Assembly (NCBI GenBank): GCA_028280405.1
Contig: JANQLW010000032.1
Location: 9,816 to 73,815 of the forward strand
Direction of reading: 5' to 3'
Origin: Bacteroidales bacterium
Lineage (GTDB): Bacteria; Bacteroidota; Bacteroidia; Bacteroidales; GCA-2711565
Length of the DNA stretch: 64,000 nt
The translations under genes were made by a program, and so were the position numbers. This document shows positions 5,007 through 51,273 of the stretch, one piece after another. Every line of letters starts with the position of its first letter. Within the stretch, counting starts at the first letter, position 1. A model generated the notes under the pieces. That model ran no database searches and was not told where the DNA came from. It saw nothing but the letters and a program-made list of their open reading frames with translations.

Positions 5007-5561
5007 ATGAAATTAAGCGATTCACAAATTCTTGAAAAACTTAAGCAAGGCGACCCTTCGGCATATAAGCAGCTATTCGATCGCTATTATATGCCATTAA
5101 GTGTTTACGCGTTAAAATACTGTAACTCCTTTCAATTAGCAGAAGATATCGTTCAGGAATTTTTCATAAAACTATGGGATGAAAAGCTATACCTTAAGTT
5201 GAAAGGCCCAATAACTTCATATCTGTTTAGGGCAATAAGGAATAATACCTTAACGGCGGTAAAAAAGAATTCAAAATACCATTTTGAGGACATCGAAGAT
5301 CAAGTCAATAAACTATTAAATGACGATGTTGATATTGAAATGATCGAACAGGAAAAGAAAAAACTATATAAAGAAATGGAAGCCTTGCCACCAAAAATGA
5401 AGGAAGTCTTCAAAGCAATCGTGCTTGATAATCTTAAATACAAAGAGGCCGCTGAACGGTTTGGCATATCCTTAAACACTGTAAAAACACATTATTCCAG
5501 GGCCTTAAAGCAGCTTCGTAATTCACTGGATATTATCATAATGTACCTTTGCATACATTAA
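5007..5561 (+). CDS. ECF (sigma-70 family) RNA polymerase sigma factor
   Basis: Region 2 DIVQEFFIKLW. Region 4 LKYKEAAERFGISLNTVKTHYSRALKQLR. Confidence 0.85.
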   Translation: MKLSDSQILEKLKQGDPSAYKQLFDRYYMPLSVYALKYCNSFQLAEDIVQEFFIKLWDEKLYLKLKGPITSYLFRAIRNNTLTAVKKNSKYHFEDIEDQVNKLLNDDVDIEMIEQEKKKLYKEMEALPPKMKEVFKAIVLDNLKYKEAAERFGISLNTVKTHYSRALKQLRNSLDIIIMYLCIH

Positions 5562-5767
5562 TTTACTCACAATTTTCGCGGTATTAATGATATTACTCGC
5601 AAAACACGCAAAAAGCGCAGAGCCTTTGCGGACTTTGCGTAAAAAACCTTAGCGCCCTTTGCGTGGAAGATATTTTCATACTATTACACTGGTTTAAAAA
5701 AAAAGTTTAATTTTCTTGTCACCCATTTTTGGTCTTTTGATATATGTATAATACACAAGATCGTTAA

Positions 5768-7015: not shown

Positions 7016-7178
7016 AAATAAATAACCGAAGTATAACTAAAATCAGAAAATATGGTAAAATAACTACAGTAGAATAAACAAAAGAGGAACGTAACTTTCC
7101 ACCTGAACAGTAAAAGAATACATTCCCCTTAAAGTCGTATTAATTAATTTATGTAACTAACTAATAACACACAAATTT

Positions 7179-10100: not shown

Positions 10101-10505
10101 TTTGAGTTTGTAAAGCAGAAAGGATGGAACCCAATAGCAAATTTTATTCCATCGTCAGCTAGAAATTTACCTGCAGCTATGATCAATCGCTGGCAAAATC
10201 CCGGAGATGTAACAGACATTCAACAAGTGAATTCAGATTTTAGCTTTATCCTAAGTCACCAACAGCATTATGCTTCAAATCTATCCAGGGTAGATGCTTC
10301 TTTTATTCGTTTACAAAATGTTGCTTTATCTTATACTATTCCGGAAAAAATCAATAAGCGGTTAGGCTTAAGTAGTGCCATCATTTATTTAAGGGCCCAA
10401 AACCTGTTTACCATCACCGGTTTTGATGGTATAGACCCTGAAACACAACGGGTGAAATTCCCGCCTTTAAGAAATATTACTGCAGGCTTACGATTAACGT
10501 TTTAA
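7179..10505 (+). CDS. SusC/RagA-type TonB-dependent outer-membrane transducer with an N-terminal STN signalling domain
   Basis: STN-like N-terminus, then a CarboxypepD_reg-like segment ([16 protein letters not shown]). Plug motif [29 protein letters not shown] and a C-terminal Phe. Confidence 0.9.
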   Translation: [1108 protein letters not shown]

Positions 10506-10516
10506 AAATTTTAGTT

Positions 10517-11923
10517 ATGAAACATATTAAATATACGCTAATAAATATATTGCTTCTGGGTCTCATGACTTCTTGCGAGGACCTTATTGAGATAGATGTA
10601 CCAAAGAATGAAATAGTAAGTGAAACACTTTTTACTACTGACCAAACAGCAACCTCTGCCCTTATTGGAACCTATGGATTATTATCAAACTACTCCACAG
10701 GAATCACCGCTAACTTGGAGTTGGTTTCAGGTTTGGCTTCAGACGAACTTTTTAACCATACAACGAATACCTCAAGAGTTGAATTGAGTAGTAATAACAT
10801 AGCAGCAGATAATGCAGTTCTTTTTGGTATTTGGAGTGGTTTTTACAGAGTTATCAATAATGCGAACGGTATTCTGGTGGGACTGGAAAATAATGATATG
10901 GTTTCGCAGGAAGCAATTGATCAGTTAACAGGCGAAGCTCTGTTTTTACGTGCTTTGTCGCACTTTTATTTAGTAAACCTTTTTAATGAGGTGCCTTATA
11001 TTACCACTACAAATGTTGAAGCTAATAATATGGTATCAAGAGATGAAGTATCTTTTGTTTATGAGCAGATAACAGCTGATCTTAACAATGCAATCCTGTT
11101 GTTACCCAATGATTATTCTTTTAATAATGGGGAACGTATTCGGGCCAATCAAAGTGCAGCACGAGCCTTGCTGGCACGTCTTTATTTGTATACCGAAAAT
11201 TGGGAGGCGGCTGAAGAGCAGGCTACTTTGGTATTAGATCAAACCACCCTTTATAGACTTGAGGATAATTTATCAGATATATTCCTGGATAACCCTTCGA
11301 ATAATAAAGAGGCTATTTGGCAATTAGCGTCATTAGGCTGGTTAGAAACCCCGGGAAGCACTTTTATTGGTGATATCCTTGTTCCATTGTCTTTTGGCCC
11401 AATAAACAGTGTAGCAGGAGGTACCACCCTTTCCGATGAAGTGATTAAGCTTTTTGAGCTTGAGCCTGATGATGAGCGCTTCAATCAATGGGTGGGTACC
11501 GCTGGAGCTTATAAATTTGTTAATAAATACAAAAATGGGATTTATAACTTTAATCCGGGCCCTCCTGAACATGTGATGATGTTGCGTCTGGCGGAGACTT
11601 ATCTTATTCGTGCAGAGGCCAGGGTCCGCTTAGGAGATATTCCCGGTGCACAAAGCGATTTAAATGCTATCCGTAACCGTGCAGGTTTGTCGAATACTTC
11701 CGCAACTACTTCAGAAGAAATGTTAGATGCTATTGCAAAAGAAAGACAAGTAGAGTTATTTGCAGAAGCACACCGTTGGTTCGATTTAAAGCGTACGGGC
11801 AAAGCATCTGAAGTGCTATCGCTAATTCAAAGGAAAGACTGGCAAGCTACAGATGTTTTATTTCCAATCCCTGCACAAGAAATTTTTAATAATTCTAATT
11901 TAACCCAAAATCCTGGGTACTAA
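10517..11923 (+). CDS. SusD/RagB family lipoprotein
   Basis: Lipobox LMTSCEDL. SusD-like motifs RALSHFYLVNLF and RWFDLKRTG. The C-terminus is NLTQNPGY. Confidence 0.9.
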   Translation: MKHIKYTLINILLLGLMTSCEDLIEIDVPKNEIVSETLFTTDQTATSALIGTYGLLSNYSTGITANLELVSGLASDELFNHTTNTSRVELSSNNIAADNAVLFGIWSGFYRVINNANGILVGLENNDMVSQEAIDQLTGEALFLRALSHFYLVNLFNEVPYITTTNVEANNMVSRDEVSFVYEQITADLNNAILLLPNDYSFNNGERIRANQSAARALLARLYLYTENWEAAEEQATLVLDQTTLYRLEDNLSDIFLDNPSNNKEAIWQLASLGWLETPGSTFIGDILVPLSFGPINSVAGGTTLSDEVIKLFELEPDDERFNQWVGTAGAYKFVNKYKNGIYNFNPGPPEHVMMLRLAETYLIRAEARVRLGDIPGAQSDLNAIRNRAGLSNTSATTSEEMLDAIAKERQVELFAEAHRWFDLKRTGKASEVLSLIQRKDWQATDVLFPIPAQEIFNNSNLTQNPGY

Positions 11924-12051
11924 AACTATCAGTATTATAATCTAACCAACCCACCCTAATTATTATTTAATCAATTAGGGTGGGATTGCTAAAGCCAAGA
12001 TGCCAGGAGTTTAAACTTCTGCTGCTTAGTAATTACAAAAAATATATCAAC

Positions 12052-13656
12052 ATGAACAGGAAATCCCAAATTGCAATAATCACTTTTATTCTATGTGTAA
12101 TCAATTATGGCTTTGCACAAAAAGGAACGTTAAAAATAGGAGATAAAGCACCTGCTTTGGAACCATATGAATGGATAAAAGGAAAACCTATTAAATCCTT
12201 CAAAAAAGGAAAACCTTATGTAATCGAGTTTGGAGCTACCTGGTGCGGTCCTTGTGCCAGGGCTATTCCTAAATTATCTGCCTTATCTAAAAAATATAAA
12301 GGTAAGGTAGAAATCGTTGGCGTTTTTGTTCAGGAATTAAACAATGAACCTCCCGGCACACCCAAACCAAAATATATCGATGATGTTCGCGAATATGTAA
12401 AAAAACTAGGTGATCAATTAAGTTATACGGTTGCAGTTGATGGCCCTGAAAAAACCATTGAAAAACAATGGATAGACGGTATGGGTAAAAGCAGAGGGGT
12501 TCCTCAAACTTTTATAATAGATAAACAAGGTAGAATCGCAGCACATTTTGTAGGAGTACAAATGGATATTATAGATAAACTACTCACAGCTATTTTAGAT
12601 GATTCTTTTGATATTGAAGCTCAAAAAGAAAATGACGCTGCAATAGCTGCAAATCAAGTTGTTTATGATTACTTAAAACCCTTATATATTGATGGTAATG
12701 GAGGAAACCGTACAGATTTCGAATTTAGATCTATTCTAAAAAAATCTACTGGAAAAATTTCACATAATAGCCCAAGCCTTTTCTTGTTTAGTTTTAGATT
12801 CCTTAACGATCCCGAATTTATGGAGTGGCTAGCAGAAAGTGTTGGAAAAACTGAAGTAGAAGCCTACAGAGAGAAGCATCTGGGAGGTCTGGACAGAGTT
12901 CAGGAAGTAAATATACCGTTGGCTTATTTATATAACCTGGCATATACTGATACCTTGGCTAACTCGCCTATGGAAAGACTACAGGCTACTGGTTTATATC
13001 CCGACACTATCAGGTTTCCCAAATATAAAAAAGCCTATGGTAAGTACTGGCCGGCACCAGTAATAGAGTTATCAGGTGAATCTCCTTACAACTTATTCGA
13101 GAAATACGATTATGTACGTAAGGTTCCTAAAGGTAGAGGTACTATGAAATTTTTACAGGAATGTATGCGACGTGACCTGATGAGTTACTTTGGGTTTGAG
13201 GCATATGTTGAAGTAAGAGAAATGCCATGTTGGTTTTTAAAAGCCCGGCCAGGTGCAAAAGAAAAATTGAAGACTAAAACTCCCGGTGAAAAATACAAAA
13301 CATTTATCAAATCTACTTCTGCTGATGGTAAGAAAATTTATGGCAGAAGCAATGCAGATATGAGAGATGTTATAAGAATGATAAGTATGGTTCATAGAAA
13401 GGCGAGGTTGAATAAATATAATGGAAAAGATGATTATTTTGAATTCATTTTTAATAACCCTCTTCCGCCTACTATAAATCAAACGGGTTTAACAAATGAA
13501 ATAGATTTTTTCTTCCACGAGAAAATTGTGGAGGCGGTAGTAAAAACCGGAGACATAAGTGTTATTTCAAGTACTCTGGAACCATTAGGCCTTTATATAG
13601 AAAAGGGTACTAAACCTATGAAAGTAGTTGTAATTCGAGATACTAAAAACCAATAA
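12052..13656 (+). CDS. TlpA-like thioredoxin-fold protein (Cys form, WCGPC) fused to a DUF3738/TIGR03435-like C-terminal domain
   Basis: Signal peptide, then GATWCGPCARAIP. The C-terminus LEPLGLYIEKGTKPMKVVVIRD resembles TIGR03435 ends (recalled). I prefer the ATG at 12052 because the GTG at 11980 lies inside the SusD terminator hairpin. Confidence 0.75.
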   Translation: MNRKSQIAIITFILCVINYGFAQKGTLKIGDKAPALEPYEWIKGKPIKSFKKGKPYVIEFGATWCGPCARAIPKLSALSKKYKGKVEIVGVFVQELNNEPPGTPKPKYIDDVREYVKKLGDQLSYTVAVDGPEKTIEKQWIDGMGKSRGVPQTFIIDKQGRIAAHFVGVQMDIIDKLLTAILDDSFDIEAQKENDAAIAANQVVYDYLKPLYIDGNGGNRTDFEFRSILKKSTGKISHNSPSLFLFSFRFLNDPEFMEWLAESVGKTEVEAYREKHLGGLDRVQEVNIPLAYLYNLAYTDTLANSPMERLQATGLYPDTIRFPKYKKAYGKYWPAPVIELSGESPYNLFEKYDYVRKVPKGRGTMKFLQECMRRDLMSYFGFEAYVEVREMPCWFLKARPGAKEKLKTKTPGEKYKTFIKSTSADGKKIYGRSNADMRDVIRMISMVHRKARLNKYNGKDDYFEFIFNNPLPPTINQTGLTNEIDFFFHEKIVEAVVKTGDISVISSTLEPLGLYIEKGTKPMKVVVIRDTKNQ

Positions 13657-39501: not shown

Positions 39502-39990
39502 TTAAAGTGAGAGGAGTTTGTCAATTTTATTTTTAATAACTACTTCATCACCAGACTGGAAACCTTCATGAATCCACAAGATTTTACCTGTATCATTTAC
39601 GATAATTAAACTGGGGAAGGCCGAAAGGTTTAATTCTTTCATCAGTTCAGAATCTAAATCAAGCAGGATTGGATACTTTATCTTTAAGACTTTAGTTAAA
39701 GGCTTTACTTTTGCAACAGAGCGAGGGCCATCGCAATTTATTCCGATGACCTTTACTCCTTTTTCCTGATAATCAACACTGATCTTGTTCAGTTCTTTGA
39801 TCGCCTTTTTACATGGTTTACACCAACTTGCCCAGAAATCGATGAGTGTTAATTTTTCTCCTTTTAATTCTTCAAATGATTGATATGAATTATTCAAATC
39901 TTTATAAGAAAAATTACTTATTTGTTGAGCATATAATCCATGGGCAATCAACAATAAGAAAGTAATAAAGAACACTTTTCTTATTCTCAT
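39502..39990 (-). CDS. TlpA-family periplasmic thiol:disulfide oxidoreductase (Cys form)
   Basis: Signal peptide and DFWASWCKPCKKAIKEL. Confidence 0.85.
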   Translation of the reverse strand: MRIRKVFFITFLLLIAHGLYAQQISNFSYKDLNNSYQSFEELKGEKLTLIDFWASWCKPCKKAIKELNKISVDYQEKGVKVIGINCDGPRSVAKVKPLTKVLKIKYPILLDLDSELMKELNLSAFPSLIIVNDTGKILWIHEGFQSGDEVVIKNKIDKLLSL

Positions 39991-40012: not shown

Positions 40013-40612
40013 TTATTCAATATTATCAAGTAAATTTTTAACCTTGGTTACCACTCCATCAAGGTCACTACTTACATTCTTAGAACCTTTATGATGAATT
40101 TTCCCAGCGGTATCAATTACAATCAGGCGATCATATGTTGTTCCATAATCGGATGCCACTGAAGAAGCATTCTTAAGAAGCGGGAATGTAACATTGGTAG
40201 CATCTTTAAATCCTTGTACCGCAGAATTATTGCCATTCCATTGATCAAGGCCTAAAATTGCAAAATTGCTATCGGATTTATATTCATCGTTCAATTTACT
40301 TTCTACACTCGGAGCAACTGCTCTGCATGAAGATCATCCATTGCCGAAAAAGAATAAGACTACAACTTTATCTTTATAATCAGATAATGAAATGGTACTA
40401 CCTGATAAGGCTGTTAAACTAAAACTTGGTGCTGTAGTTGCACTTCCTCCATCACCATTGCCGTTTCCATTGCCGTTTCCGTTCCCATTTCCATTGTCAG
40501 GATTCATTCCATCCATTTCGTCTCCACTACAAGAAAACATTAACCCTGCAGAGACTAAAATGAAGACAGATTGAAGAAAATACTTGTAAATATCTTTTGT
40601 TAGATTTTTCAT
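40013..40612 (-). CDS. Candidate selenoprotein: thioredoxin-fold lipoprotein with UxxC (in-frame TGA at 40334-40336, residue 93 of 199)
   Basis: Two same-frame ORFs are joined by one TGA, reading ...KVVVLFFFGNG-U-SSC-RAVAP... The lipobox is LMFSC and a (GN)7 linker follows. A hairpin GAGC-AGUU-GCUC starts 10 nt after the UGA (plus-strand coordinates 40312-40323). Confidence 0.6.
40453..40497. repeat. Hexanucleotide tandem repeat encoding the (Gly-Asn)n linker
   Basis: The repeat ccattgccgtttcc encodes NGNGNGNGNGNGNGD just after the lipobox Cys. Confidence 0.7.
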
Positions 40613-40970: not shown

Positions 40971-42134
40971 ATGAAAATTACGAGCCAAATATGGAACTTA
41001 TTAGCCCTCATCCTTTCAGGTGAAGCCTCTGAAAAAGACAGGCATGACTTTGAAAGCTGGCTGGCAGAAGCGCCTGAAAATCCTTACTTATTTGAAGAGC
41101 TAAAAGCCATTAGTGAGCAATCCCGTCCCACTGCTAAGTTTCAGACTAAAGATATTGAAGAGGCCTGGGCTCAGGTGAAAGCCCAGACACTTGGCCGAAA
41201 AAAGAAGATTGTTCCATTCCGGAAGTTTGTAAAATATGCTGCAGCTGCTTTTTTGATATTGGGAATCTCAGCTGTTATACTGATGCAACAGAAAAAGATT
41301 ACTCCTACTGTTGAGTTTTCAGAATCAACAGTCAAGCCAGGTAAAAGCAAAGCCATTCTCATATTGGATGATGGAAAAGAAATTGGGCTGACTGATGAAA
41401 AAATCAATTTATCCACTAAAGGCGTTCAGATACAAAACAATGCTAGTGGGCTCAGATACATTGCCGACAATAAAATAACTGAATCCGTAATAAACAAACT
41501 TATTGTTCCTAAAGGTGGGGAGTATCCCCTCACTCTTTCCGACGGCACAAAAATATGGTTAAACTCAGAATCGGAAATTACATATCCTGCTCCTTTTAGT
41601 GGAGAAATACGCAAGGTAAATATTATTAGTGGTGAAGTATATTTTGAAGTAGCTAAAGATACTGCCAAGCCTTTTATCGTCAGTATTAATAATAAAGCTG
41701 AAGTAGAAGTTCTGGGTACCCATTTCAATGTAAATGCATACCATGATGAAGCCGCAATCAAAACTACACTCGTTGAAGGTTCGGTTAAAGTCTCATCACT
41801 AATTACGAATGACAGATCACTGATCACACCCGGCCAACAAGCAGGTATCAATGAAGGCGGATATATTGAGGTAAAAGAAGTGGATACAAAATTATATACT
41901 TCATGGAAAGACGGGCAATTTTACTTCAACGATTGTACATTGGAAGCTTTGATGCATTCTTTATCCCGTTGGTACGATTTTGAGGTAGATTATGAGGATG
42001 AGAGTCTGAAAGGCCTCCGTTTTACCGGACTGATAGAAAAACACAACCCTATCGAATACGGATTAAAATTGATAAGCTATACCACTGTGGTATCGTTTAA
42101 GATCGTAGGGAATGCTATTATAGTGAAAAAGTAA
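40971..42134 (+). CDS. FecR family anti-sigma factor
   Basis: TM segment AAAAFLILGISAVILM and FecR core VPKGGEYPLTLSDGTKIWLNSESEITYP. Confidence 0.85.
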   Translation: MKITSQIWNLLALILSGEASEKDRHDFESWLAEAPENPYLFEELKAISEQSRPTAKFQTKDIEEAWAQVKAQTLGRKKKIVPFRKFVKYAAAAFLILGISAVILMQQKKITPTVEFSESTVKPGKSKAILILDDGKEIGLTDEKINLSTKGVQIQNNASGLRYIADNKITESVINKLIVPKGGEYPLTLSDGTKIWLNSESEITYPAPFSGEIRKVNIISGEVYFEVAKDTAKPFIVSINNKAEVEVLGTHFNVNAYHDEAAIKTTLVEGSVKVSSLITNDRSLITPGQQAGINEGGYIEVKEVDTKLYTSWKDGQFYFNDCTLEALMHSLSRWYDFEVDYEDESLKGLRFTGLIEKHNPIEYGLKLISYTTVVSFKIVGNAIIVKK

Positions 42135-42351
42135 TTTGAAAAGGAGACAACTTGACAATGAACGTAATTTTAGAAATAAGACAGCAGATATTGACTTTAG
42201 AAATCCAACATCCAAAAAAGAAAGGAGGAATATCGATTAACTAACAATAAAGCTTAAAACAAAAAAAGGGAGATGCTCCAACATCCCCCTAAATAAACAA
42301 TTCACAAACCGAATAACTAAAACAATTTATGAACTTGTAAACTACAAAAGT

Positions 42352-45300
42352 ATGAAAAAAAACGTACTATTGAATTTTGGGGTTTTTCCCAATAATTGGA
42401 AAAAAATCCTATTGATTATGAAGCTAAGTTTGATCTTTATTTTTTCTGCGATGCTGGCTACAGCTGCCAACAGCTATGGGCAGGAAGGGAAAATTAGTTT
42501 GTCGCTAAAAAACACAAATATTGAGCAGGTACTTAAAAACATTACTGCTCAAACCGGCTATGAATTTATTTACAATAATGATGCCTTTGATGCCGAACTT
42601 AAGGTGGATATTGATGTAAAACAGGCTGACATCCAAAATGTGCTTACACAACTGCTGGATGAGCAATATAGTTATAAGATAGAGGATAAATTTATTGTAA
42701 TCTTTCCGGCATCCTCCACTTCAGAATTAGCATCCATTACCGTAACCGGTAAAGTAACGGACTCAGATGGAAAACCCCTGCCCGGTGCTACTGTATTAAT
42801 AAAAGGCACCTTTAAGGGTATAATCACGGATCAGGAAGGAAAATATAAAATCTCTGAGGTAACCCCTGAGACAATATTGGTATTTTCTTATATCGGTTTT
42901 GCAAAGCAGGAAATTACGGTAGGCAACAAGACCACCATCAATGTTACCTTGGAGCAATCTGCTACCGAATTGGAAGAAGTGACGATTAACGCCGGCTATT
43001 ATACCGTAAAACAAAAAGAAGCAACAGGAAATATCACTAAGGTAGCTGCCAAAGCAATAGAACAGCAGCCGGTAACCAACCCCTTACAAGCCCTGCAAGG
43101 CAGAACCCCGGGTGTTTTTATTTCTCAAAGAACCGGGCTCCCCGGAAGCGGCTTTGATATAGAAATAAGGGGTCGAAACAGCATTAGAAATTGGTCAAAT
43201 AATGATGGAAATCTTCCTTTATACATCATAGATGGAGTCCCTTATGTTTCCGAGTCACTTTCTACAAATCAGTTTGGTTCTATGATTTCTCGTTCAAGTC
43301 CTTTGAACAATATTAATCCCTCTGATATTGAAAGTATTGAAATTCTGAAGGATGCGGATGCAACGGCCATTTATGGTTCGAGGGGAGCCAACGGGGTGGT
43401 ATTGATCACAACGAAAAAGGCCAGGGCCAGCCAGACAAGCCTAGAAATAAACCATTGGATGGGAATTGAACAGGTGCCGCGCAAAATGGAGCTGTTAAAT
43501 ACCGAGCAATACCTGGAAATGCGCCTGGAGGCCTTTAAAAATGACGGGCAAACACCCGATCCAAATAATCCACAGCACTTGGATGTGTTGGAATGGGGGA
43601 GCCGCTATACAGATTGGCAGGAAGAGTTCATAGGAGGAACCGCGAACCTCTCCAACACAAATATCGTCATATCCGGTGGTAATGAAAATACAAGGTTTTC
43701 GCTTGGAGGAACCCTGTACCGCACAACCACCGTTTTCCCGGGAGATTTTTCCTATTTGCGTGGATCAGGCCGCTTTAACCTGAATCATACGAGCCATAAT
43801 AAGAAGTTCAATATAGACTTTACAAGCTTTTACAATACAGGCAGAAATGAGCTTCCTAATGGTGATCTTACTCGTGCTGCTTTAACCCGAGTACCTAATG
43901 CTCCCTCCCTTTTGAACGAAGATGGGAGCCTTAAGTGGGATGATCCTATTGGAGGAAATCCGTTAGCAACACTAAGGAGACAATATCTTGTAAAAACAAG
44001 TAATTTTAATACTAATCTAAGGCTATCCTGGCAATTTACCCCAAAGCTGAAATTAAGCACAAGTTTAGGCTATAACCGGTTACAGCAAAGCGAATTAAGG
44101 ACTAGACCTATCTCAGCTAACAATCCTGCATGGGGTAATACTACCGGAGAGGCTGACTTTACGGAGGGATTGAATTATTTATGGATTATCGAACCCCAAC
44201 TTAAATATACTACTCAATTAGGACCCGGAAGGCTTGGAGTCATTATAGGGGGGACTTTTCAGGAAAATATCAATGAACTTGAAACCACAAGGGCAAGAGG
44301 TTTTCAGGACGATAATTCATTAGAAAACATTGCTGCGGCCGGCGAAACATCCATTCTGGAATATCGCTATACTCAGTATCGATACAGCGCTATTTACGGA
44401 CGTATCAATTACAAGCTGGATGATAAGTACATCCTTAACCTAACTGGCCGTAGAGATGGTTCCAGTAAATTCGGGTCCGACAAAAAATTTGGGAATTTCG
44501 GAGCTATAGGAGCGGCTTGGATCTTTTCAAAGGAAGAATTTTTCAAAGAAAATTCGATATTAAGTTTTGGAAAACTAAGAAGTAGTTACGGTATTATCGG
44601 GAGCGATCAGATCCCGGATTATCAGTACCTGAGCTCCTATCGTTATACAGGTGATTCATACCAGGGAACCCCTTCGCTCTTACCGAACAGAATTGCCAAT
44701 CCTGAATTTAGCTGGGAATCAACCAGGCAATTGGAAGTGGGACTGGAACTGGGTTTCTTTGACGACAGGATCAATACATCTGCAAGCTATTTCAGAAAAC
44801 GGACATCCAATCAACTGGTAGGTTTTGACCTACCCGATATTACCGGCTTCTCCTCCTTTCAATTCAATATGCCGGCTACGGTTGAAAACAAAGGCTGGGA
44901 ATTTTTACTCTCGACCACAAACATCCGTACCAAAGATTTCAGGTGGACTTCCAGCTTAAATCTAAGTGCCTTACGTAATAAACTCATTGAATACCCGAAT
45001 ATTGAAAGTTCCCCTTATGCTAATCGATATCGTATTGGTAAGTCTCTTTACATAAGAGGCTTTTATGACACCTCTGTGGATCCCGAAATTGGTATGTATA
45101 CCTTTGAAGATCTCAATGGAGATGGAAGGGTTACTTATGCAGATGACCGGAGATTTTATGACTTCAGGAAAGATTACTTCGGTGGTTTTCGAAATAATCT
45201 CAGATACAAAAATATTGAGCTGGATTTTCTTTTCCGCTTTGTCAAACAAAAAGGACAAAGTTACTTTACATACTTTGGGCCTCAGGGTTTTCCCGGAAAC

Positions 45301-45645
45301 CAGCCAACAGCAGTTTTAGATCGTTGGCAACAAGCCGGAGATGTAAGCGATATCCAACAATTCACCCAAGGTTTTACATCAGCCCTATGGAAGTGGTTTG
45401 ATGCATTCTATAATTCGGATGAAATAATTATAAATGCTTCCTTTATAAGGCTGGAAAATGTTTCCTTAGCCTACAACTTCCCAGCTCAGCTTCTTAAACA
45501 AATAAATGTAAAACAATTAAGGATTTATTTGCAGGTCCAGAATCTTTTTACCATTACGAATTTTAAAGGCTTGGATCCTGAAACTTGGTATATGTCCTTG
45601 CCACGCCTAAGGAGTATTACAGCAGGTATTCAGTTAAAATTTTAA
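42352..45645 (+). CDS. SusC/RagA-type TonB-dependent transducer with an STN domain (paralog of 7179-10505)
   Basis: STN segment (LKNTNIEQVLKNITAQTGYEFIY). It shares blocks with the first SusC (FSYIGFAKQEI.VGNKTTINVTLEQSATELEEV, IEILKDADATAIYGSRGANGVVLITTKK) and ends in Phe. Confidence 0.9.
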   Translation: MKKNVLLNFGVFPNNWKKILLIMKLSLIFIFSAMLATAANSYGQEGKISLSLKNTNIEQVLKNITAQTGYEFIYNNDAFDAELKVDIDVKQADIQNVLTQLLDEQYSYKIEDKFIVIFPASSTSELASITVTGKVTDSDGKPLPGATVLIKGTFKGIITDQEGKYKISEVTPETILVFSYIGFAKQEITVGNKTTINVTLEQSATELEEVTINAGYYTVKQKEATGNITKVAAKAIEQQPVTNPLQALQGRTPGVFISQRTGLPGSGFDIEIRGRNSIRNWSNNDGNLPLYIIDGVPYVSESLSTNQFGSMISRSSPLNNINPSDIESIEILKDADATAIYGSRGANGVVLITTKKARASQTSLEINHWMGIEQVPRKMELLNTEQYLEMRLEAFKNDGQTPDPNNPQHLDVLEWGSRYTDWQEEFIGGTANLSNTNIVISGGNENTRFSLGGTLYRTTTVFPGDFSYLRGSGRFNLNHTSHNKKFNIDFTSFYNTGRNELPNGDLTRAALTRVPNAPSLLNEDGSLKWDDPIGGNPLATLRRQYLVKTSNFNTNLRLSWQFTPKLKLSTSLGYNRLQQSELRTRPISANNPAWGNTTGEADFTEGLNYLWIIEPQLKYTTQLGPGRLGVIIGGTFQENINELETTRARGFQDDNSLENIAAAGETSILEYRYTQYRYSAIYGRINYKLDDKYILNLTGRRDGSSKFGSDKKFGNFGAIGAAWIFSKEEFFKENSILSFGKLRSSYGIIGSDQIPDYQYLSSYRYTGDSYQGTPSLLPNRIANPEFSWESTRQLEVGLELGFFDDRINTSASYFRKRTSNQLVGFDLPDITGFSSFQFNMPATVENKGWEFLLSTTNIRTKDFRWTSSLNLSALRNKLIEYPNIESSPYANRYRIGKSLYIRGFYDTSVDPEIGMYTFEDLNGDGRVTYADDRRFYDFRKDYFGGFRNNLRYKNIELDFLFRFVKQKGQSYFTYFGPQGFPGNQPTAVLDRWQQAGDVSDIQQFTQGFTSALWKWFDAFYNSDEIIINASFIRLENVSLAYNFPAQLLKQINVKQLRIYLQVQNLFTITNFKGLDPETWYMSLPRLRSITAGIQLKF

Positions 45646-45656
45646 ACAAAGTCATT

Positions 45657-47069
45657 ATGAAAAATACAATCTATACAACTAAGCTGACATATAAAAAGCC
45701 ATTGAGCTTTCTAACGATCATTTTTTGTCTATGCCTAATCTTTTCATGCGAAAAATTCGTAGACATTGACTCCCCCATTACGGAAGTCATTACCGAAGAT
45801 GTTTTTTCCAGTGATGCTACCGCAAATGCTGCTATCATAGGGATGTACTCCAATATGTTTGATAATTCCAGTATTTCAACCCAGTTAACGCGGGAAACAA
45901 GTCTAGCCTCAGATGAGTTGATCGATGTTTCAACGCAATTACCTTTGGGACAATTTTTCAATAACGGCTTAACCTCTGATAATTCTCATGTCTCCCGATT
46001 TTGGACTCAACTATACAAACTCATTTTCTCTGCCAATGATGCGATTGAAGGATTGAAAATTTCAAATCGGGTATCGAAAAACTTAAAAAATCAACTCATG
46101 GGCGAAGCTTATTTTATGAGGGCTTTTTGTCATTTCTATCTAGTTTCTTTATGGAGTGACGTTCCTTTGGTAACTTCTACGGATTATAGAGTGAATAGAC
46201 TAGCCTCAAGAAGCCCGGAAGTTGATGTATTTCAACAGATCATTGATGATTTGACGGAGTCTAAAAGCCTTTTATCGGAAGATTATTCTTTTTCTGGTGG
46301 AGAACGGTTCCGTCCGAATAAATTTACAGCTTCTGCTTTGTTGGCAAGGGTTTACCTGTATACAGAGGCCTGGGAAAATGCAGAAACGGAATCGACCATG
46401 GTCATCAATCATTCAGCCTATGAACTCTTATCCGATTTAAATGCGATTTTTCTTGAAAACAGCCGGGAGGCCATTTGGCAATTGCAATCATTTAATAATG
46501 AAGGTACCAATACCCATGATGGAAACATATATATCATTCTGCAAACACCTCCAACAATTGTAACATTGAGAGATGAACTTGCTGATTCGTTTGAATCCAA
46601 TGATGACAGAAAAAATCATTGGATTGACAGTATCTCTGATGATTCTCAAACCTATTATTTTGCTTATAAATATAAAATCCGGGGTGCTAATACGACGCTT
46701 CCTATCACAGAAGCTATGGTATTCTTCCGCTTGGCTGAGCAATACCTGATCCGGGCTGAAGCACGTGCAAATACCGGAAATATTTCCGGAGCCCAGGCCG
46801 ATATTAATATGATCCGTAACCGGGCCGGCCTTCCGAACACAACAGCAACTGATCAGGCATCCTTGCTGCTGGCCATTGAAAAGGAGAGAAAGCATGAACT
46901 CTTTACAGAAGGCAGCCACCGATGGATGGATTTAAAACGAACAGGCCGGATAGATGAGGTCTTAGGTTTAGTCAAACCGGGTTGGGACCCGCATGACAAA
47001 CTATTTCCCATCCCGAAAGATGAACTTACGGATAATCCGAATTTGACTCAAAATCCGGGATATAATTAA
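45657..47069 (+). CDS. SusD/RagB family lipoprotein
   Basis: The preferred ATG at 45657 gives MKNTIYTT... with the lipobox LIFSCEKF. Motifs RAFCHFYLVSLW and RWMDLKRTG. The C-terminus is NLTQNPGYN. Confidence 0.9.
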   Translation: MKNTIYTTKLTYKKPLSFLTIIFCLCLIFSCEKFVDIDSPITEVITEDVFSSDATANAAIIGMYSNMFDNSSISTQLTRETSLASDELIDVSTQLPLGQFFNNGLTSDNSHVSRFWTQLYKLIFSANDAIEGLKISNRVSKNLKNQLMGEAYFMRAFCHFYLVSLWSDVPLVTSTDYRVNRLASRSPEVDVFQQIIDDLTESKSLLSEDYSFSGGERFRPNKFTASALLARVYLYTEAWENAETESTMVINHSAYELLSDLNAIFLENSREAIWQLQSFNNEGTNTHDGNIYIILQTPPTIVTLRDELADSFESNDDRKNHWIDSISDDSQTYYFAYKYKIRGANTTLPITEAMVFFRLAEQYLIRAEARANTGNISGAQADINMIRNRAGLPNTTATDQASLLLAIEKERKHELFTEGSHRWMDLKRTGRIDEVLGLVKPGWDPHDKLFPIPKDELTDNPNLTQNPGYN

Positions 47070-47168
47070 AGGCTCTTCGGCGAAGGCACGTTTGGCGAAG
47101 GCTTCGGCCTTCGTCAATAACCACACAACCACTAAATAGATCATTAAAAATTAAATAAATAGAAAAAA

Positions 47169-48446
47169 ATGAGAAGAAAAACATTATTCCTCACTTTTGC
47201 CTTATTTACCAGCACATTATTTGCTCAAAACAATGCCGGGCAATCAACAATTTCCATTGGAGATGAGGTACCCAATCTGAAATTTTCAAAAATGGTTAAC
47301 TATCCTGCAAAAGAGATAGCCTTGCATGAGCTGAAAGACAAACTAATTATTCTTGATTTTTGGGCCAAATGGTGATGGGGTTGTATCAAAGACTTTCCAA
47401 GGTTGGATAAGCTACAACGACAATTTGACGGGGAAATTCAAATTTTGCCCTATGCGGAAGAAAAGCTGGAAAAAGTTGAAGATATTTTTGCCAGGATAAA
47501 AAAACAAATGGATCTTATTTTGCCCAGTGCTTCGGAGACAAGCATTCCCAAAGTAATTAACTCGAATAAGAAAATATGGATATACAAAGGTAAATTAATT
47601 GCTAAAACCGGAACACTTGAAGTAAATGCTGAAAATATTGAAGCCGTATTGAACGGTGGTGAGATTAAGTATAAAGGACTCAGAAATAAAAAAAAGAAAG
47701 AGTTTGAACATTTAAATGATTTTAACGGACTGCAATTAAATCATTCCGTATTGAGGAAAAATATTGGGGAAAAATTCCAATCAGCATTATCCAAAGGAAT
47801 GAAAGGGTATGATGTTGACTCGAAATATAAAATGCCCAAAGAAGATGATAAGGTTTACGGAAGAAGATACATTAATTTTACTATTTCTCTACTATATATT
47901 AGAGCTTATGATCTTCCTTCCATATCAGAATGGGTTATTGAAGTCGCGGATAAAAAACATTTTTATCCCGGGTATGGAATGGAAAATGCATCCAATACCT
48001 ATTGCTATGAAATAATGGCTTCGAATGATGAAAACATGGGTTTTAGAGATATCCATAAAGAGGCTAATAAAATAATGCAGAAAGACCTGGAAAAGGTATT
48101 TAACATTACAGTAAAAAAAGAGAAAAGAAATATTAAGGTATACGTACTTAGGAAAATGAAGGGTTATGAGAAATTGATTAGCAAAGGCGGTGAAAAAAAA
48201 ATGGAAGCAACAGCCTTTTTTATCAATTATCAAAACATGCCTTTTTCTGCTTTGGTAAAAAAAATTGAATACTGTTTGGAAACAGGTTTTTTAATTGATG
48301 AAACCGGGCTTGATATAAATGTTGACCTTGACATTAATGTACGAACCTATGATTATAAAGAAATGAAACAAGCCCTAAAAGAATATGGCCTTGAATTAAC
48401 AATAGAAGAAAGAGAACGGGAAGTGTTTGTGATAAAAGAAATTTAA
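47169..48446 (+). CDS. Candidate selenoprotein: TlpA-like thioredoxin domain with UxxC (TGA at 47373-47375, residue 69 of 425) fused to a DUF3738/TIGR03435-like domain
   Basis: Same-frame ORFs 47169-47375 and 47403-48446 read ...LIILDFWAKW-U-WGC-IKDFPRLDKLQ... This aligns with the WCGPC and WCKPC motifs of the Cys paralogs at 12052-13656 and 39502-39990. A signal peptide is present and a candidate hairpin lies at 47380-47418. Confidence 0.6.
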
Positions 48447-48474
48447 GACGTTTGAAGTTTATGTTTATGTCTAC

Positions 48475-48590
48475 GTCATCCTGTCTGCCAGAGGTCGAAG
48501 CTAGCTCTTACCCTAATCGATTGCAACCACGCCTCGACAAGCTCGGCGGCCTGGGTCATTGAGCGAAGCGTAGCGTAGTCGAAATGCGAC
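48475..48590. repeat. Degenerate member of the GTCATCCTG / GAGCGAAGCG repeat family
   Basis: GTCATCCTG..., CCTCGACAAGCTCG and GTCATTGAGCGAAGCGTAGCG lie between the two candidate selenoprotein genes. Confidence 0.4.
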
Positions 48591-48648
48591 CAATACCAAC
48601 AAGGCCGAACGAAATAGAGATAAAAAAACAAAAATTAATTTATAAATA

Positions 48649-50526
48649 ATGAAAACTAAATACTTATCATTTTTACTGGGAATAGTACTTTCATCAACAC
48701 TATTTGCCCAGCATTCAAAAACAGACAAACAAAGATCAACCAACTTTCCAATATTCCCTGAAATTCTAAATACTAATATTCCGGGAGCACCTTTATTAGG
48801 GAAGCCGGTACTGATAAATGGCAAGAAACAGGAGATCCGGGTTGAAAAGCACGGGCTGGCTTACCCGGCCCTTTTTGACTGGGACAGGGATGGAAAAAAA
48901 GATCTTTTGATTGGCGAATTTGAAACCGGCCAAACAGGTTCAAATATCAAAGTATACCTTAACCGGGGATCCAACAAAAAGCCCAAATATTCCGGTGAAT
49001 ACTTTTATGCCCTGAATACTAAAGGCGATACGATTACGACTCACCAGTGGTGATGTATTGGCACACATCCTCAGTTTGTGGATTTAAATAATGACGGCTA
49101 TATGGATATGTTAAGCGGCCAGTACAATCCCGGAAAAATTTCGTGGTGGAGAGGATCGGAAAATGGTTTTCTTCCAAGGGTTTTTGTTGAACAAAAGGGC
49201 TATGTTGAAGGTGCCCAACCGAATTATGATATGGCTCCCTGGGATCCTAAATCAACTAACTATTGGGAATTTACCTCTGCCGGATTTGCAGATTTTAATG
49301 GTGATGGTTTACAGGATTTATTTGTAGGAGGGTTTAGGGAGTTCCGTGTAGCTTTAAATAAAGGGACAAAAACGGATCCGAAATTTGGATTACGTAAATA
49401 TTTGTTAGGGCTTGACGGAGAACCTCTATCTATAAAAAGGTCCGGTAAAAAAGAAATTGAAGAAAGCCGTAAAAAAGGACAGTATCTCAACCTTTCAGGG
49501 GTATCTAAAAGTTTTATAAACCCTGTTGATTGGGATGGTGATGGAGTACTGGACTTACTAATTACCCATTCTTATTCAAAAAAAGGGGGGAATCCCGTTG
49601 AATTTTTTCGTGGTGTTCAAACAGATAAAGGTCTGCGATTTGAGCCCCCTAAGCCTTTATTTACAGCTAAAAAAGGGCAAAAGACTTTCCCGGGCTGTTG
49701 CCCCAATATTAAGGTGGCGGATTATAATAATGATGGGGTGCTGGATTTGATCTTTGGCCTTTCTATTCCAACGATTAATGGGTTTGAAATTGATTCATCA
49801 GTTGCATGGAATTATAATGATAATCTGAAGCTTAATACACCTGGAAAAGATGTAGGCCGACAAATTAAAATTTATAGCAATAAACAAATTGCTGAAATAA
49901 AGAAAAGGCTTGATGGTAACCCTTCTCCGGATTTAAGACGATCGTATATAGGAGATTTGGAAGATAGTAAGTATATCACATTACGTCACCGGGGGTATAT
50001 ATATGTGATGCTGGGGAGAAAGAATCCTGTAAAAGCCGTAGCTGAAAAACTAAAAGCTAAGGCAGAGGTTAAACGAAAGGTCATAAAAAATGAGACCATC
50101 AAAACAGGTGGAGGCAATAGCCCCCTACAATTTGAGGTAAAAGCTCCCCAGCGTATAAAATACAATAAAGAATACCTGGTAGAAGTTGTTATGAATTTTG
50201 ATCAAGGATGGTATGGCTACGCCAATACAAAAGGGAATATTTCCCTTGGTTTAATTCCAACAAAAATTGAGTATAAATTCCCCGAAGGCTTTGAATTGGT
50301 TGGAAAAGCCGTAGAACCTAAACCTCTGCAAAAAAGGGGGACTGATGTGTATCAAAACATGAACCAGGTCTTCTTTCAGAAATTCAAAGTACCCTATATC
50401 CAGGGAAAAGAAGGAACAGGTGAATACACCATTGCAGTCATTGTTCATTACCAGGTTTGTGATGAGAACGGATGTTTGCCGCCAACAAAGGAAAATATAA
50501 AAATGAAAGCTTGGTTATTCTGGTAA
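48649..50526 (+). CDS. Candidate selenoprotein: secreted FG-GAP/VCBS-repeat protein (TGA at 49051-49053, residue 135 of 625) with a DsbD-alpha-like C-terminal domain
   Basis: The same-frame ORFs read ...TITTHQW-U-CIGTHPQFVDLNNDGYMDM... There are five DxDxDG repeats (FDWDRDGKKDLL, VDLNNDGYMDML, ADFNGDGLQDLF, VDWDGDGVLDLL, ADYNNDGVLDLI). The split cuts one repeat. The C-terminus HYQVCDENGCLPP resembles the DsbD N-terminal domain motif. Confidence 0.55.
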
Positions 50527-50736: not shown

Positions 50737-51273
50737 TTATAAAAATGAGCCTAATTCCTTTCTCATAATCTTATAAGCAATGCCAATCTGCGTTTTGACT
50801 GTATTGATGGAAATATTCAGTACTTGTGCAATTTCGGCATATTTGAGTCCGGCTACATTACTCATGATAAATATCTTTCGGCATTTTTTGGGCAGTTTAA
50901 GTAATGCCTTCCTTAGCCTTTTATGTGTGTCTTCTATTAAGCTTTCATCTTCCGAATGAGTTTCTGCTTCTTGTGTTTGACGATATTGTGTAAATACTCT
51001 TTCCACAAAAGAATCATGGTTTATATAATTAATGCAGCTATTTCTCACAGCCTGGCGTGCATAGGATTGGAATGAACCTTTAATAGTTAGTTTGTCCCTT
51101 TTTTCCCAGAACTTGATAAAAAATTCCTGAACAATATCATCTGCCGTTTGATTGTCTCTGATAAAGATAAAAGCATGCTCGCATAGCATTTCATAATGTA
51201 AACGGAACAATGACTCGAATATAGTTTCAGTGATTCCCTGATCGGGATCGATATGTTCATGATTCTTTGTCAA
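50737..51273 (-). CDS. ECF sigma factor, convergent with the end of the SusC/SusD/selenoprotein locus
   Basis: Region 2 DIVQEFFIKFW. Region 4 LKYAEIAQVLNISINTVKTQIGIAYKIMR. Confidence 0.85.
   Translation of the reverse strand: MTKNHEHIDPDQGITETIFESLFRLHYEMLCEHAFIFIRDNQTADDIVQEFFIKFWEKRDKLTIKGSFQSYARQAVRNSCINYINHDSFVERVFTQYRQTQEAETHSEDESLIEDTHKRLRKALLKLPKKCRKIFIMSNVAGLKYAEIAQVLNISINTVKTQIGIAYKIMRKELGSFL

What the first reader, a model, noticed from the sequence alone, without database searches (positions are those of the whole stretch)
47169..48446. In-frame TGA exactly at the first Cys of a TlpA-type WCxxC motif (FWAKW-U-WGC)
ORFs 47169-47375 and 47403-48446 share a frame and are separated by a single TGA with no other stop. 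Read through, the protein is a signal peptide, a thioredoxin fold and a DUF3738-like domain. That matches the architecture of the Cys paralog at 12052-13656, whose motif is ATWCGPC. The TGA aligns with the catalytic Cys. TGA aligned to Cys in a homolog is the classic selenoprotein criterion. Downstream there is a composite hairpin. The lower stem pairs 47380-47385 with 47413-47418. The upper stem pairs 47393-47399 with 47404-47411 and has a bulged U at 47408. The apical loop is AGGU at 47400-47403, about 25 nt after the UGA. This is compatible with bacterial SECIS geometry but does not prove it.
Basis: partly seen in the sequence, partly recalled or inferred. Interest (0 to 1): 0.85.

Follow-up and report, generated by a model that had tools for sequence, protein, structure and literature searches.

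The report
Likely selenocysteine codon in TlpA-like gene
An in-frame TGA in a secreted thiol-disulfide oxidoreductase gene of a Bacteroidota bacterium most likely encodes selenocysteine rather than stop, and it lies in a 10-kb cluster with two more such genes, in a phylum that older genome surveys reported as lacking selenoproteins.

Summary
A single TGA (47373-47375) splits an otherwise intact 425-codon gene for a signal peptide, a TlpA/ResA-like thioredoxin domain and a DUF3738-like domain.

- **Cys alignment:** the TGA sits on the first Cys of a CxxC motif that is invariant in 96 full-length homologs.
- **Ortholog:** a metagenomic ortholog (46% amino-acid identity upstream) has TGA at the same codon.
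- **Truncated homologs:** the two closest database homologs are cut at the same point.
- **Hairpin:** it meets the published bacterial SECIS consensus, but 7.6% of random in-frame positions do too.
- **Neighbouring genes:** two more in-frame TGAs lie on redox cysteines. One (49051) is in an FG-GAP/DsbD_N protein, at the first Cys of an invariant QWCCIG motif; three other loci keep that TGA plus a hairpin that the closest Cys form lacks. The other (40336, minus strand) is in a thioredoxin-like lipoprotein.

Verdict: a genuine Sec-UGA candidate (about 0.8) and a new member of the known TlpA-like UxxC selenoproteins. The Sec machinery could not be checked, because only the window is available. 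No gene here ends in TGA, which is unexplained.

The parts
47169..48446 (+). Complete read-through gene of 425 codons: signal peptide, TlpA/ResA-like thioredoxin domain with a UxxC motif, and a DUF3738-like C-terminal domain.
   Evidence: Full-length homologs of 420-460 aa are listed and aligned.
47169..47228 (+). Predicted N-terminal signal peptide (MRRKTLFLTFALFTSTLFAQ), which implies export to the periplasm or cell envelope.
   Evidence: Read directly from the sequence. Homologs have equivalent hydrophobic N-termini. No signal-peptide predictor was run.
47373..47375 (+). In-frame TGA, the proposed Sec codon (residue 69). It is the first position of the U-W-G-C redox motif at 47373-47384.
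   Evidence: Cys invariant in homologs. Searches show TGA at the same codon in the ortholog on L007/L008/L009.
47380..47418 (+). Candidate bacterial SECIS stem-loop. The lower stem pairs 47380-47384 with 47414-47418. The upper stem pairs 47390-47399 with 47404-47413 and has bulges. The apical loop is AGGU at 47400-47403, 24 nt after the UGA.
   Evidence: Searches show it meets the four criteria of the consensus quoted. The single-sequence z-score is not significant.
47391..47417 (+). A 27-nt block, GACTTTCCAAGGTTGGATAAGCTACAA, that is identical in the TGA-containing ortholog and covers the upper stem and loop.
   Evidence: The chance of the same nine codons by the window's codon usage is about 1e-5. 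TTG at 47403 is also implied in P0002 and P0003, whose called ORFs start there.
48003..48443 (+). DUF3738-like C-terminal domain (residues 279-425).
   Evidence: PF12543, 35.2 bits against a cutoff of 22. (TIGR03435, 26.3 bits, below its cutoff of 40).
48649..50526 (+). Adjacent FG-GAP/VCBS beta-propeller plus DsbD_N protein with a second in-frame TGA at 49051-49053 (HQW-U-CIGTHPQ). A hairpin follows at 49067-49083.
   Evidence: Searches show the TGA lies on the first Cys of the near-invariant QWCCIG motif. Searches show the same TGA in L005 and twice in L006. Searches show the hairpin is invariant in Sec forms and absent in the closest Cys form, L010.
40013..40612 (-). Thioredoxin-like lipoprotein with a third in-frame TGA at 40336-40334 (FFFGNG-U-SSC-R). 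A hairpin follows at 40333-40302 with loop AGUU.
   Evidence: One search aligns the U with the first Cys of WCKPC in the neighbouring gene 39502-39990. Searches also apply. No ortholog data were obtained.
40971..47069 (+). Upstream context: FecR-like anti-sigma factor (40971-42134), SusC-like TonB-dependent transporter (42352-45645) and SusD-like lipoprotein (45657-47069). An ECF sigma factor lies at 50737-51273 on the minus strand.
   Evidence: The same order, sigma/FecR/SusC/SusD/TlpA-DUF3738, is seen around the Cys homolog P0004 and in the window's paralogous locus 5007-13656.

Best explanation
TGA 47373-47375 is a selenocysteine codon.

**Decoding (inferred).** During translation, a SelB-type elongation factor carrying Sec-tRNA(Sec) is recruited by the stem-loop that starts a few nucleotides downstream. 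Its apical loop AGGU lies 24 nt after the UGA. Sec is inserted in place of termination.

**Product (shown from sequence and homology).** The product is one 425-residue exported protein. Its N-terminal TlpA/ResA-like thioredoxin domain carries a U-W-G-C motif in place of the family's invariant C-x-x-C. It is followed by a DUF3738-like domain.

**Function (inferred from the family).** The selenolate acts as the attacking nucleophile in thiol-disulfide exchange in the cell envelope. C72 is the resolving residue, forming a selenylsulfide.

**Context.** The gene belongs to an ECF-sigma/FecR/SusC/SusD locus of a Bacteroidota genome. It is one of three envelope thiol-redox genes within 10.5 kb that carry a Cys-aligned UGA. 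The adjacent FG-GAP protein with a DsbD N-terminal-like domain is a plausible redox partner, but that link is inferred only.
For: 1. The ORF is intact on both sides of a single TGA.
2. The TGA column is Cys in every full-length homolog. C73 and C76 of P0004 are invariant in 96 sequences.
3. An ortholog assembled identically in three independent ENA metagenome assemblies has TGG TGA TTT GGC TGT at the same codon. Its upstream ORF is conserved (46% amino-acid, 57% nucleotide identity).
4. The two closest database homologs, P0002 (55%) and P0003 (47%), are called from the same TTG (MDKLQ...) just after this site. That implies a stop in the same place.
5. Downstream of the TGA, 27 nt covering the upper stem and loop are identical between the window and the ortholog. 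All synonymous positions match, including the rare codons AGG, TTG and CTA. The joint probability by codon usage is about 1e-5.
6. The hairpin satisfies all four criteria of the published bSECIS consensus.
7. Two further in-frame TGAs in the same 10.5 kb also fall on the first Cys of redox motifs. For the FG-GAP gene, the TGA recurs in three other loci with an invariant hairpin that the closest Cys form lacks.
8. The same truncated product is recorded from both NCBI and Logan assemblies, which argues against an assembly error.
9. The AF2 model of the Cys homolog P0004 (pLDDT 88) has a complete ResA/TlpA-type fold, with TM 0.74-0.77 to ResA and related chains.
Against: - No selA, selB, selD or tRNA-Sec is in the window, and the rest of the genome could not be reached.
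- Published surveys of genomes available in 2006 and 2015 found no Sec-decoding trait in Bacteroidetes (PMC1794560; PMC5322559).
- The hairpin is not distinguishable from shuffled sequence by energy (z = -0.53).
- The consensus SECIS model is met by 7.6% of random in-frame positions.
- No compensatory base changes were seen; the support is conservation only.
- The Cys homolog P0004 also keeps TTT CCA AGG TTG GAT. Part of the nucleotide conservation may therefore not be specific to Sec forms.
- DNA for P0002 and P0003 could not be obtained.
- No Rfam family matches.
Confidence: 0.8

Rival explanations
1. The gene is a pseudogene. A nonsense mutation (TGT/TGC to TGA) inactivated one of many TlpA-DUF3738 paralogs.
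For: The family is highly paralogous. An intact Cys paralog lies at 11980-13656. TGY to TGA needs a single substitution. Sec machinery is unverified.
Against: The same TGA at the same codon occurs in an ortholog only 46-57% identical, with both flanks still open and conserved. The 357 codons after the TGA contain no further stop or frameshift. Two neighbouring genes show the same Cys-to-TGA pattern, and one of them is conserved in three other loci. Three independent nonsense hits landing exactly on the nucleophilic Cys of redox motifs are very unlikely.
Confidence: 0.06
2. UGA is reassigned in this lineage, to Cys, Trp or Gly, or is unassigned because release factor 2 was lost. The three TGAs would then be decoded by an ordinary tRNA without Sec.
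For: None of the 42 ORFs of at least 150 aa in the window ends in TGA (37 TAA, 5 TAG). In related loci, 9 of 44 do.
Against: Only three in-frame TGAs occur in about 17,000 codons. All three are on the attacking Cys of UxxC or UC motifs, while the other 108 Cys codons are TGT or TGC. Each TGA is followed by a hairpin with an AG(G/U)U loop. A related Sec-type locus, L005, uses TGA as an ordinary stop in 3 of 9 ORFs. A general reassignment would scatter TGA over Trp, Gly or Cys positions.
Confidence: 0.05
3. The TGA is a sequencing or assembly error in this contig.
For: The source is probably a metagenome-assembled contig. A single-base error could turn TGT or TGC into TGA.
Against: The truncated product P0001 is recorded from two sources, NCBI and Logan. 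Three such errors would all have to fall on redox cysteines within 10 kb. The ortholog TGA is identical in three separate ENA assemblies.
Confidence: 0.02
4. Translation truly terminates at the TGA, giving a 68-residue secreted peptide. The downstream part is expressed separately from TTG 47403, as the gene callers assumed.
For: Gene callers produce exactly this model in three genomes (P0001-P0003).
Against: The split would separate the signal peptide and beta1 strand from the rest of a single thioredoxin fold. It would leave the C-terminal part without an export signal and without the first redox residue. The TTG lies inside the conserved hairpin. Full-length homologs are single chains.
Confidence: 0.02

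Closest known systems
TlpA-like (cd02966) 'thiol-disulfide isomerase-like' UxxC selenoproteins, and the related Prx-like and Redoxin-family UxxC selenoproteins. They are known from Sargasso Sea and GOS metagenomes and are catalogued in the 2026 review PMC13188914.
   Same: Thioredoxin fold of the TlpA/ResA type. Sec replaces the N-terminal Cys of CxxC. There are many more Cys homologs than Sec forms. A stem-loop follows the UGA immediately. The protein is exported.
   Different: Here the domain is fused to a C-terminal region of about 230 residues that includes a DUF3738-like domain. The gene sits behind SusC/SusD and FecR in a Bacteroidota locus. The motif is W-U-[WF]-G-C. The subclade lacks the otherwise near-invariant Pro of the cis-Pro loop region. 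It does not reach any NCBIfam selenoprotein model.
[quoted passage not shown]
   Same: ResA/TlpA-like, with a W-A-x-x-U context (here W-A-K-W-U).
   Different: That family's motif is U-G-C. Here it is U-x-G-C, a classical UxxC spacing. The finding's protein gives no hit to NF041054 at E <= 0.001.
ResA (Bacillus subtilis) and TlpA (Bradyrhizobium), Cys-containing extracytoplasmic reductases.
   Same: The fold of the N-terminal domain. The model of homolog P0004 superposes on ResA chains with TM 0.73-0.76 and on TlpA with TM 0.53-0.57. CxxC sits at the N-terminus of helix 1, and the protein is exported.
   Different: Sec replaces Cys. There is an extra C-terminal domain. The substrate is unknown, and there is no link to cytochrome c or ScoI maturation genes in the window.
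E. coli fdhF-type bacterial SECIS and the consensus bSECIS model (PMC13188914, Fig. 2 legend).
   Same: The hairpin starts just after the UGA. The apical loop is small, with G followed by G/U in its first positions. There is a bulged U in the upper stem, a 24-nt spacing, and an MFE of -10.2 kcal/mol.
   Different: There is no sequence similarity beyond the loop. No Rfam match was found. SelB binding is untested.

Membership tests
Bacterial selenoprotein gene (Sec-UGA plus bSECIS) | In-frame UGA inside an otherwise intact, conserved ORF | tested here: met
   There is a single TGA, with 68 codons upstream and 357 downstream, both homologous to one protein family.
Bacterial selenoprotein gene (Sec-UGA plus bSECIS) | Cys at the aligned position in homologs (Sec/Cys pair) | tested here: met
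   Both CxxC cysteines are invariant in 96 full-length homologs.
Bacterial selenoprotein gene (Sec-UGA plus bSECIS) | UGA conserved at the same codon in orthologs | tested here: met
   L007/L008/L009 carry TGG TGA TTT GGC TGT. P0002 and P0003 are truncated at the same point, but this is protein-level evidence only.
Bacterial selenoprotein gene (Sec-UGA plus bSECIS) | [quoted passage not shown] | tested here: met
   One search gives loop AGGU, a 4-bp contiguous top stem plus extensions, spacing 24 nt and MFE -10.2 kcal/mol. The background rate is 7.6%, so this is weak on its own. It is supported by a 27-nt identity with the ortholog. No covariation was available.
Bacterial selenoprotein gene (Sec-UGA plus bSECIS) | selA, selB, selC (tRNA-Sec) and selD present in the same genome | not testable with these tools
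   None is in the 64-kb window. The source contig and genome are not retrievable.
Bacterial selenoprotein gene (Sec-UGA plus bSECIS) | Selenium actually incorporated (75Se labelling or a Sec peptide by mass spectrometry) | not testable with these tools
   This needs an experiment.
TlpA/ResA-like thiol-disulfide oxidoreductase (cd02966) | Thioredoxin-like fold with the redox motif at the N-terminus of helix 1 | tested here: met
   Pfam AhpC-TSA, Thioredoxin and Redoxin hits at residues 30-93. The AF2 model of the 37%-identical homolog P0004 matches ResA/DsbE/TlpA with TMt up to 0.77. The window protein itself could not be modelled.
TlpA/ResA-like thiol-disulfide oxidoreductase (cd02966) | Extracytoplasmic location (signal peptide or membrane anchor) | tested here: inconclusive
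   A hydrophobic N-terminus ending in FAQ is visible. No dedicated signal-peptide predictor was available.
TlpA/ResA-like thiol-disulfide oxidoreductase (cd02966) | Conserved cis-Pro loop opposite the active site | tested here: inconclusive
   A Pro is near-invariant in the wider family (P142 of P0004 numbering). In alignment A4, the window protein and P0003 have no Pro in the block where most shown homologs have FPH..PH. The position was not inspected in a structure.
NCBIfam NF041054 WAxxUGC_long selenoprotein | Score above the family cutoff (300 bits) and a U-G-C motif | tested here: not met
   No hit for the finding's protein at E <= 0.001. The motif is U-W-G-C.
DUF3738 (PF12543) / TIGR03435 | Score above the curated cutoff | tested here: met
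   PF12543 scores 35.2 bits against a cutoff of 22. TIGR03435 scores 26.3 bits against a cutoff of 40, so that narrower family is not met.

The most novel reading that the evidence does not exclude
In this Bacteroidota lineage UGA may no longer act as a stop codon at all. None of 42 genes in 64 kb ends in TGA, against about 20% in related loci. Under this reading, UGA is reserved for selenocysteine in a set of cell-envelope redox proteins. That would mean loss or restriction of release factor 2 and a dedicated Sec codon, which has not been described for bacteria.

A less radical part of the same reading is that the FG-GAP/DsbD_N protein with a vicinal U-C motif is a previously uncatalogued selenoprotein family.
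Probability: 0.05. Interest if true: 0.9.

Novelty: new member of a known kind. Interest (0 to 1): 0.55.

Why it matters
If confirmed, the gene is misannotated in public records, as a 347-residue fragment or a pseudogene, in at least three or four genomes. This is a typical blind spot of gene callers.

It would document Sec decoding in Bacteroidota, a phylum that the comparative surveys available to me (2006, 2015) reported as lacking the trait. It would place three selenoproteins in the cell envelope next to a SusC/SusD transporter under ECF-sigma/anti-sigma control. That points to a selenium-dependent branch of envelope thiol-redox chemistry in a lineage known mainly for polysaccharide uptake.

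The neighbouring FG-GAP/DsbD_N U-C protein appears in neither the 2026 selenoprotein catalogue nor NCBIfam. It would be a new selenoprotein family with a clean contrast between Sec and Cys forms in the SECIS.

Tried and rejected
**Searches that returned nothing**
- Rfam found nothing for SECIS or any other family, at gathering threshold on the whole window and at E <= 10 around the site.
- Both genome-contig scans found nothing: the protein alignment and a DNA pattern around the TGA.
- Both metagenome-contig scans found nothing. In the first, the pattern that started with M could not match the real TTG codon, so sensitivity was low.
- The literature searches found no paper on Bacteroidota selenoproteins.

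**Look-ups that failed**
- The look-up of encoding contigs has no record for P0001, P0002 or P0003, or for an edge gene of the window.
- The SusD neighbour search, meant to reach the contigs of P0002 and P0003, returned no protein from contigs of 130,852 or 18,394 bp among the top 120.

**Analyses that gave no support**
- Single-sequence folding energies are no better than shuffles for any of the hairpins.
- RNAalifold on the four FG-GAP Sec forms gave conservation but no compensatory changes.
- Upstream of the L007 ortholog there is a GC-rich palindromic element rather than a SusD end, so synteny for that ortholog is unknown.

**Hypotheses rejected**
- Genetic code 4 or 25: in-frame TGAs occur only at three redox Cys positions.
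- Membership of the WAxxUGC and TUGYCR NCBIfam selenoprotein families.
Full report
**Observation.** The window (35.7% GC) carries ORF 47169-47375 and ORF 47403-48446 in one frame. The only stop between ATG 47169 and TAA 48444 is TGA 47373-47375, in the context TTT TGG GCC AAA TGG TGA TGG GGT TGT, which reads FWAKW*WGC. With that codon read through, the 425-residue product starts with a hydrophobic signal-like N-terminus. It hits AhpC-TSA, Thioredoxin and Redoxin at residues 30-93 and DUF3738 at residues 279-425. The paralog at 11980-13656 has the same architecture with ATWCGPC, and BLASTP aligns the TGA with its first Cys. Its energy of -10.2 kcal/mol is ordinary for this composition (z = -0.53).

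**Homologs of the gene.** A search of 5.8 billion proteins found 149 homologs at E <= 0.001. Nearly all of the 120 listed are full-length Bacteroidota 'TlpA family protein disulfide reductases' of 400-600 aa. The two closest, P0002 (55% identity) and P0003 (47%), are 349 and 340 aa and begin MDKLQ.... This is exactly where the window's own called fragment P0001 begins, at TTG 47403. In an alignment of 96 full-length homologs, both cysteines of CxxC are invariant. The nearest Cys forms are P0004 (FWTTWCGPC, a TARA ocean metagenome) and P0005. Both sit directly behind SusD, and P0004 sits behind an ECF sigma/FecR/SusC/SusD series like the window's.

**DNA of a TGA-containing ortholog.** An exhaustive HMMER search with only the 68 residues upstream of the TGA returned a 75-residue protein, P0364. 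It ends ...SWAYW, aligned to the window's ...FWAKW. Its three carrier contigs come from three different ENA assemblies and are identical where they overlap. They read AGC TGG GCA TAT TGG TGA TTT GGC TGT ATC GCA GAC TTT CCA AGG TTG GAT AAG CTA CAA AAA GAA, which is S W A Y W U F G C I A D F P R L D K L Q K E. The stop is therefore TGA at the identical codon, and the frame continues into the same protein. The continuation (KEFKD) differs from P0002 and P0003, so this is a further member of the TGA clade.

**Nucleotide conservation after the TGA.** Upstream of the TGA the two genes are 46% identical in protein and 57% in DNA. Only 18 of 31 identical residues share the third codon base. From codon +6 to +14 after the TGA, 27 nt are identical (GACTTTCCAAGGTTGGATAAGCTACAA). 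This block covers the upper stem and loop of the hairpin and includes the rare codons AGG, TTG and CTA. By the window's own codon usage, the chance of the same nine codons is about 1e-5. The lower stem is only partly kept. There is one caveat. The Cys homolog P0004 also has TTT CCA AGG TTG GAT (p about 0.0035). This is either a fossil of a former Sec state or a hairpin that predates the Sec codon.

**SECIS criteria.** The 2026 review PMC13188914 gives the consensus bacterial SECIS:
- an upper stem of 4-16 bp;
- 16-37 nt between the UGA and the loop;
- an MFE of -7.5 kcal/mol or lower.

The 47373 hairpin meets all four, with loop AGGU, spacing 24 nt and MFE -10.2 kcal/mol. However, 7.6% of 4000 random in-frame positions of the window's genes meet them too. 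A narrower description was made after seeing the data, so it is indicative only. It requires a loop of the form A?G[GU]U of 5 nt or less, a stem of 4 bp or more, and a spacing of 12-30 nt. Its background is 0.3%. It is met by 47373, by 40336 and by three FG-GAP Sec loci elsewhere.

**Two more Cys-aligned TGAs nearby.** A six-frame scan that treats TGA as sense finds only three in-frame TGAs inside real coding sequence in 64 kb.

The first is the finding itself.

The second is TGA 49051-49053, in the next gene downstream (48649-50526). This gene encodes an FG-GAP/VCBS repeat protein with a C-terminal DsbD_N domain. In 18 N-terminally complete homologs in the alignment, the motif is QWCCIG(T/I/V)H(P/S)R, and the TGA falls on the first of the two adjacent cysteines. 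Two homologs that begin just after the motif led to three more genes with TGA at that codon: L005:9974, L006:464 and L006:6504. All four Sec forms share CAT CC(A/T) CAG TTT GTG GAT TTA. This is invariant apart from one synonymous position in the window. It folds as AUCCAC-AGUUU-GUGGAU, and the window copy has one U-U mismatch. The closest Cys form (L010, 64% identity) has CAT TCA CGA TTT GTT GAC CTT, with no hairpin. Its protein motif is HSR, against HPQ in all four Sec forms and mostly HPR in the other Cys forms. That is the expected signature of a SECIS embedded in coding sequence.

The third is TGA 40336-40334 on the minus strand, in a 199-residue thioredoxin-like lipoprotein (FFFGNG-U-SSC-R). 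The TGA aligns with the first Cys of WCKPC in the adjacent redoxin gene, and a hairpin with loop AGUU follows. I had no searches left to find its orthologs.

**Why this points to Sec.** All three independent TGAs fall on the attacking Cys of a redox motif, and each leaves the partner Cys in place. Two of them recur at the same codon in other genomes, with nucleotide-level constraint just downstream. A pseudogene, an assembly error or a general codon reassignment does not explain this pattern. P0001 is also recorded from both NCBI and Logan assemblies. The related locus L005 uses TGA as an ordinary stop in 3 of 9 ORFs while carrying a Sec-type gene. UGA is therefore dual-use there, as in known Sec-decoding bacteria.

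**What the protein probably does.** The AF2 model of P0004 (pLDDT 88.4, pTM 0.81) has two parts. The N-terminal domain of about 150 residues superposes on ResA, DsbE, TlpA and Bacteroides thiol-disulfide oxidoreductases, with TM up to 0.77. A C-terminal alpha/beta region of about 230 residues corresponds to the DUF3738-like part. By homology, the window protein is an exported TlpA/ResA-type thiol-disulfide oxidoreductase. U69 would attack substrate disulfides, or oxidised cysteines, and C72 would resolve the intermediate. The substrate is unknown. The conserved position behind SusC/SusD under FecR/ECF-sigma control suggests envelope proteins or imported substrates of that transporter. The adjacent DsbD_N-containing protein suggests a possible electron donor or partner. 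These last steps are inference.

**What could not be shown.** The window contains no tRNA and no Sec machinery gene. It is ordinary chromosomal DNA. It encodes methylmalonyl-CoA mutase, glutamine synthetase, PdxA, a Mur ligase/alanine racemase fusion and two SusC/D loci. The phylum assignment rests on the SusC/SusD pairs and on named hits to Cytophagales, Chitinophaga, Mucilaginibacter and Marinifilum. The surveys of 2006 and 2015 stated that Bacteroidetes lacked the Sec-decoding trait. The 2026 review does not mention the phylum. I cannot exclude later reports.

**Comparison with known families.** TlpA-like (cd02966), Prx-like and Redoxin-family UxxC selenoproteins are established kinds. The finding fits that kind in fold, motif, Sec/Cys pairing and SECIS position. 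It differs by the C-terminal DUF3738-like extension, the Bacteroidota SusCD context and the W-U-[WF]-G-C motif. It is not a member of the curated WAxxUGC (NF041054) or TUGYCR (NF053656) families. The FG-GAP/DsbD_N U-C protein is in neither the review's catalogue (no occurrence of 'FG-GAP' or 'VCBS') nor NCBIfam.

**An unexplained point.** None of the 42 ORFs of at least 150 aa in the window ends in TGA (37 TAA, 5 TAG). In the related loci fetched here, 9 of 44 do. This may be a lineage habit. It also leaves open a small chance that UGA is not a stop in this organism.

**Verdict.** This is most likely a real selenocysteine codon (confidence about 0.8). It is a new member of a known kind of selenoprotein, embedded in a three-gene cluster of envelope selenoproteins in a Bacteroidota genome.

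Noticed in passing
window 48649-50526 (+), TGA at 49051-49053; also L005:9974, L006:464, L006:6504: The gene next to the finding encodes an FG-GAP/VCBS repeat protein with a DsbD_N domain. It has an in-frame TGA on the first Cys of the near-invariant QWCCIG motif, giving a vicinal U-C. Three other loci keep the TGA and an invariant downstream hairpin, AUCCAC-AGUUU-GUGGAU. The closest Cys form (L010) lacks the hairpin. Sec forms read HPQ, whereas L010 reads HSR and most other Cys forms read HPR. The family is in neither the 2026 selenoprotein catalogue nor NCBIfam.
   Followed up: yes
window 40013-40612 (-), TGA at 40336-40334: A 199-residue thioredoxin-like lipoprotein (lipobox LMFSC, poly-GN linker) has an in-frame TGA in FFFGNG-U-SSC-R. 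The TGA aligns with the first Cys of WCKPC in the adjacent redoxin gene 39502-39990. A hairpin with loop AGUU starts 14 nt after the UGA. No ortholog data were obtained.
   Followed up: partly
whole window: None of the 42 ORFs of at least 150 aa ends in TGA (37 TAA, 5 TAG). In related Bacteroidota loci fetched here, 9 of 44 do. The cause is unknown.
   Followed up: partly
L001:10001-11287 (Cys homolog P0004, TARA metagenome): This Cys-containing homolog (37% identity) keeps TTT CCA AGG TTG GAT, the top of the window's hairpin, at the nucleotide level (p about 0.0035 by codon usage). It may be a fossil SECIS after a Sec-to-Cys change, or a hairpin that predates the Sec codon.
   Followed up: partly
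L006:62-1942 and L006:6099-8000: One Logan contig carries two paralogous FG-GAP/DsbD_N genes, each with the TGA at the same codon. An ABC transporter separates them, and an ECF sigma/FecR/SusC series follows. The Sec form has therefore duplicated within a genome.
   Followed up: partly
window 48450-48600 and 47070-47125: GC-rich intergenic segments (50-55% GC in a 36% GC genome) flank the finding's gene. The longer one contains TTGAGCGAAGCGTAGCGTAGTCGAAATG. It is single-copy in the window, has no Rfam match, and its fold is no better than shuffles (z = 0.68). A comparable GC-rich palindromic element lies upstream of the ortholog on L007.
   Followed up: partly
window 47169-48446; alignment A4 columns about 210-235: In alignment A4, the window protein and P0003 have no Pro in the block where most shown TlpA-DUF3738 homologs have FPH..PH. 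This is the region of the thioredoxin-fold cis-Pro loop. The active-site geometry of this subclade may differ.
   Followed up: no
window 5007-13656: There is a second, paralogous ECF sigma/FecR/SusC/SusD/TlpA-DUF3738 locus whose oxidoreductase has Cys (ATWCGPC). This gives a Sec/Cys paralog pair within one genome.
   Followed up: partly
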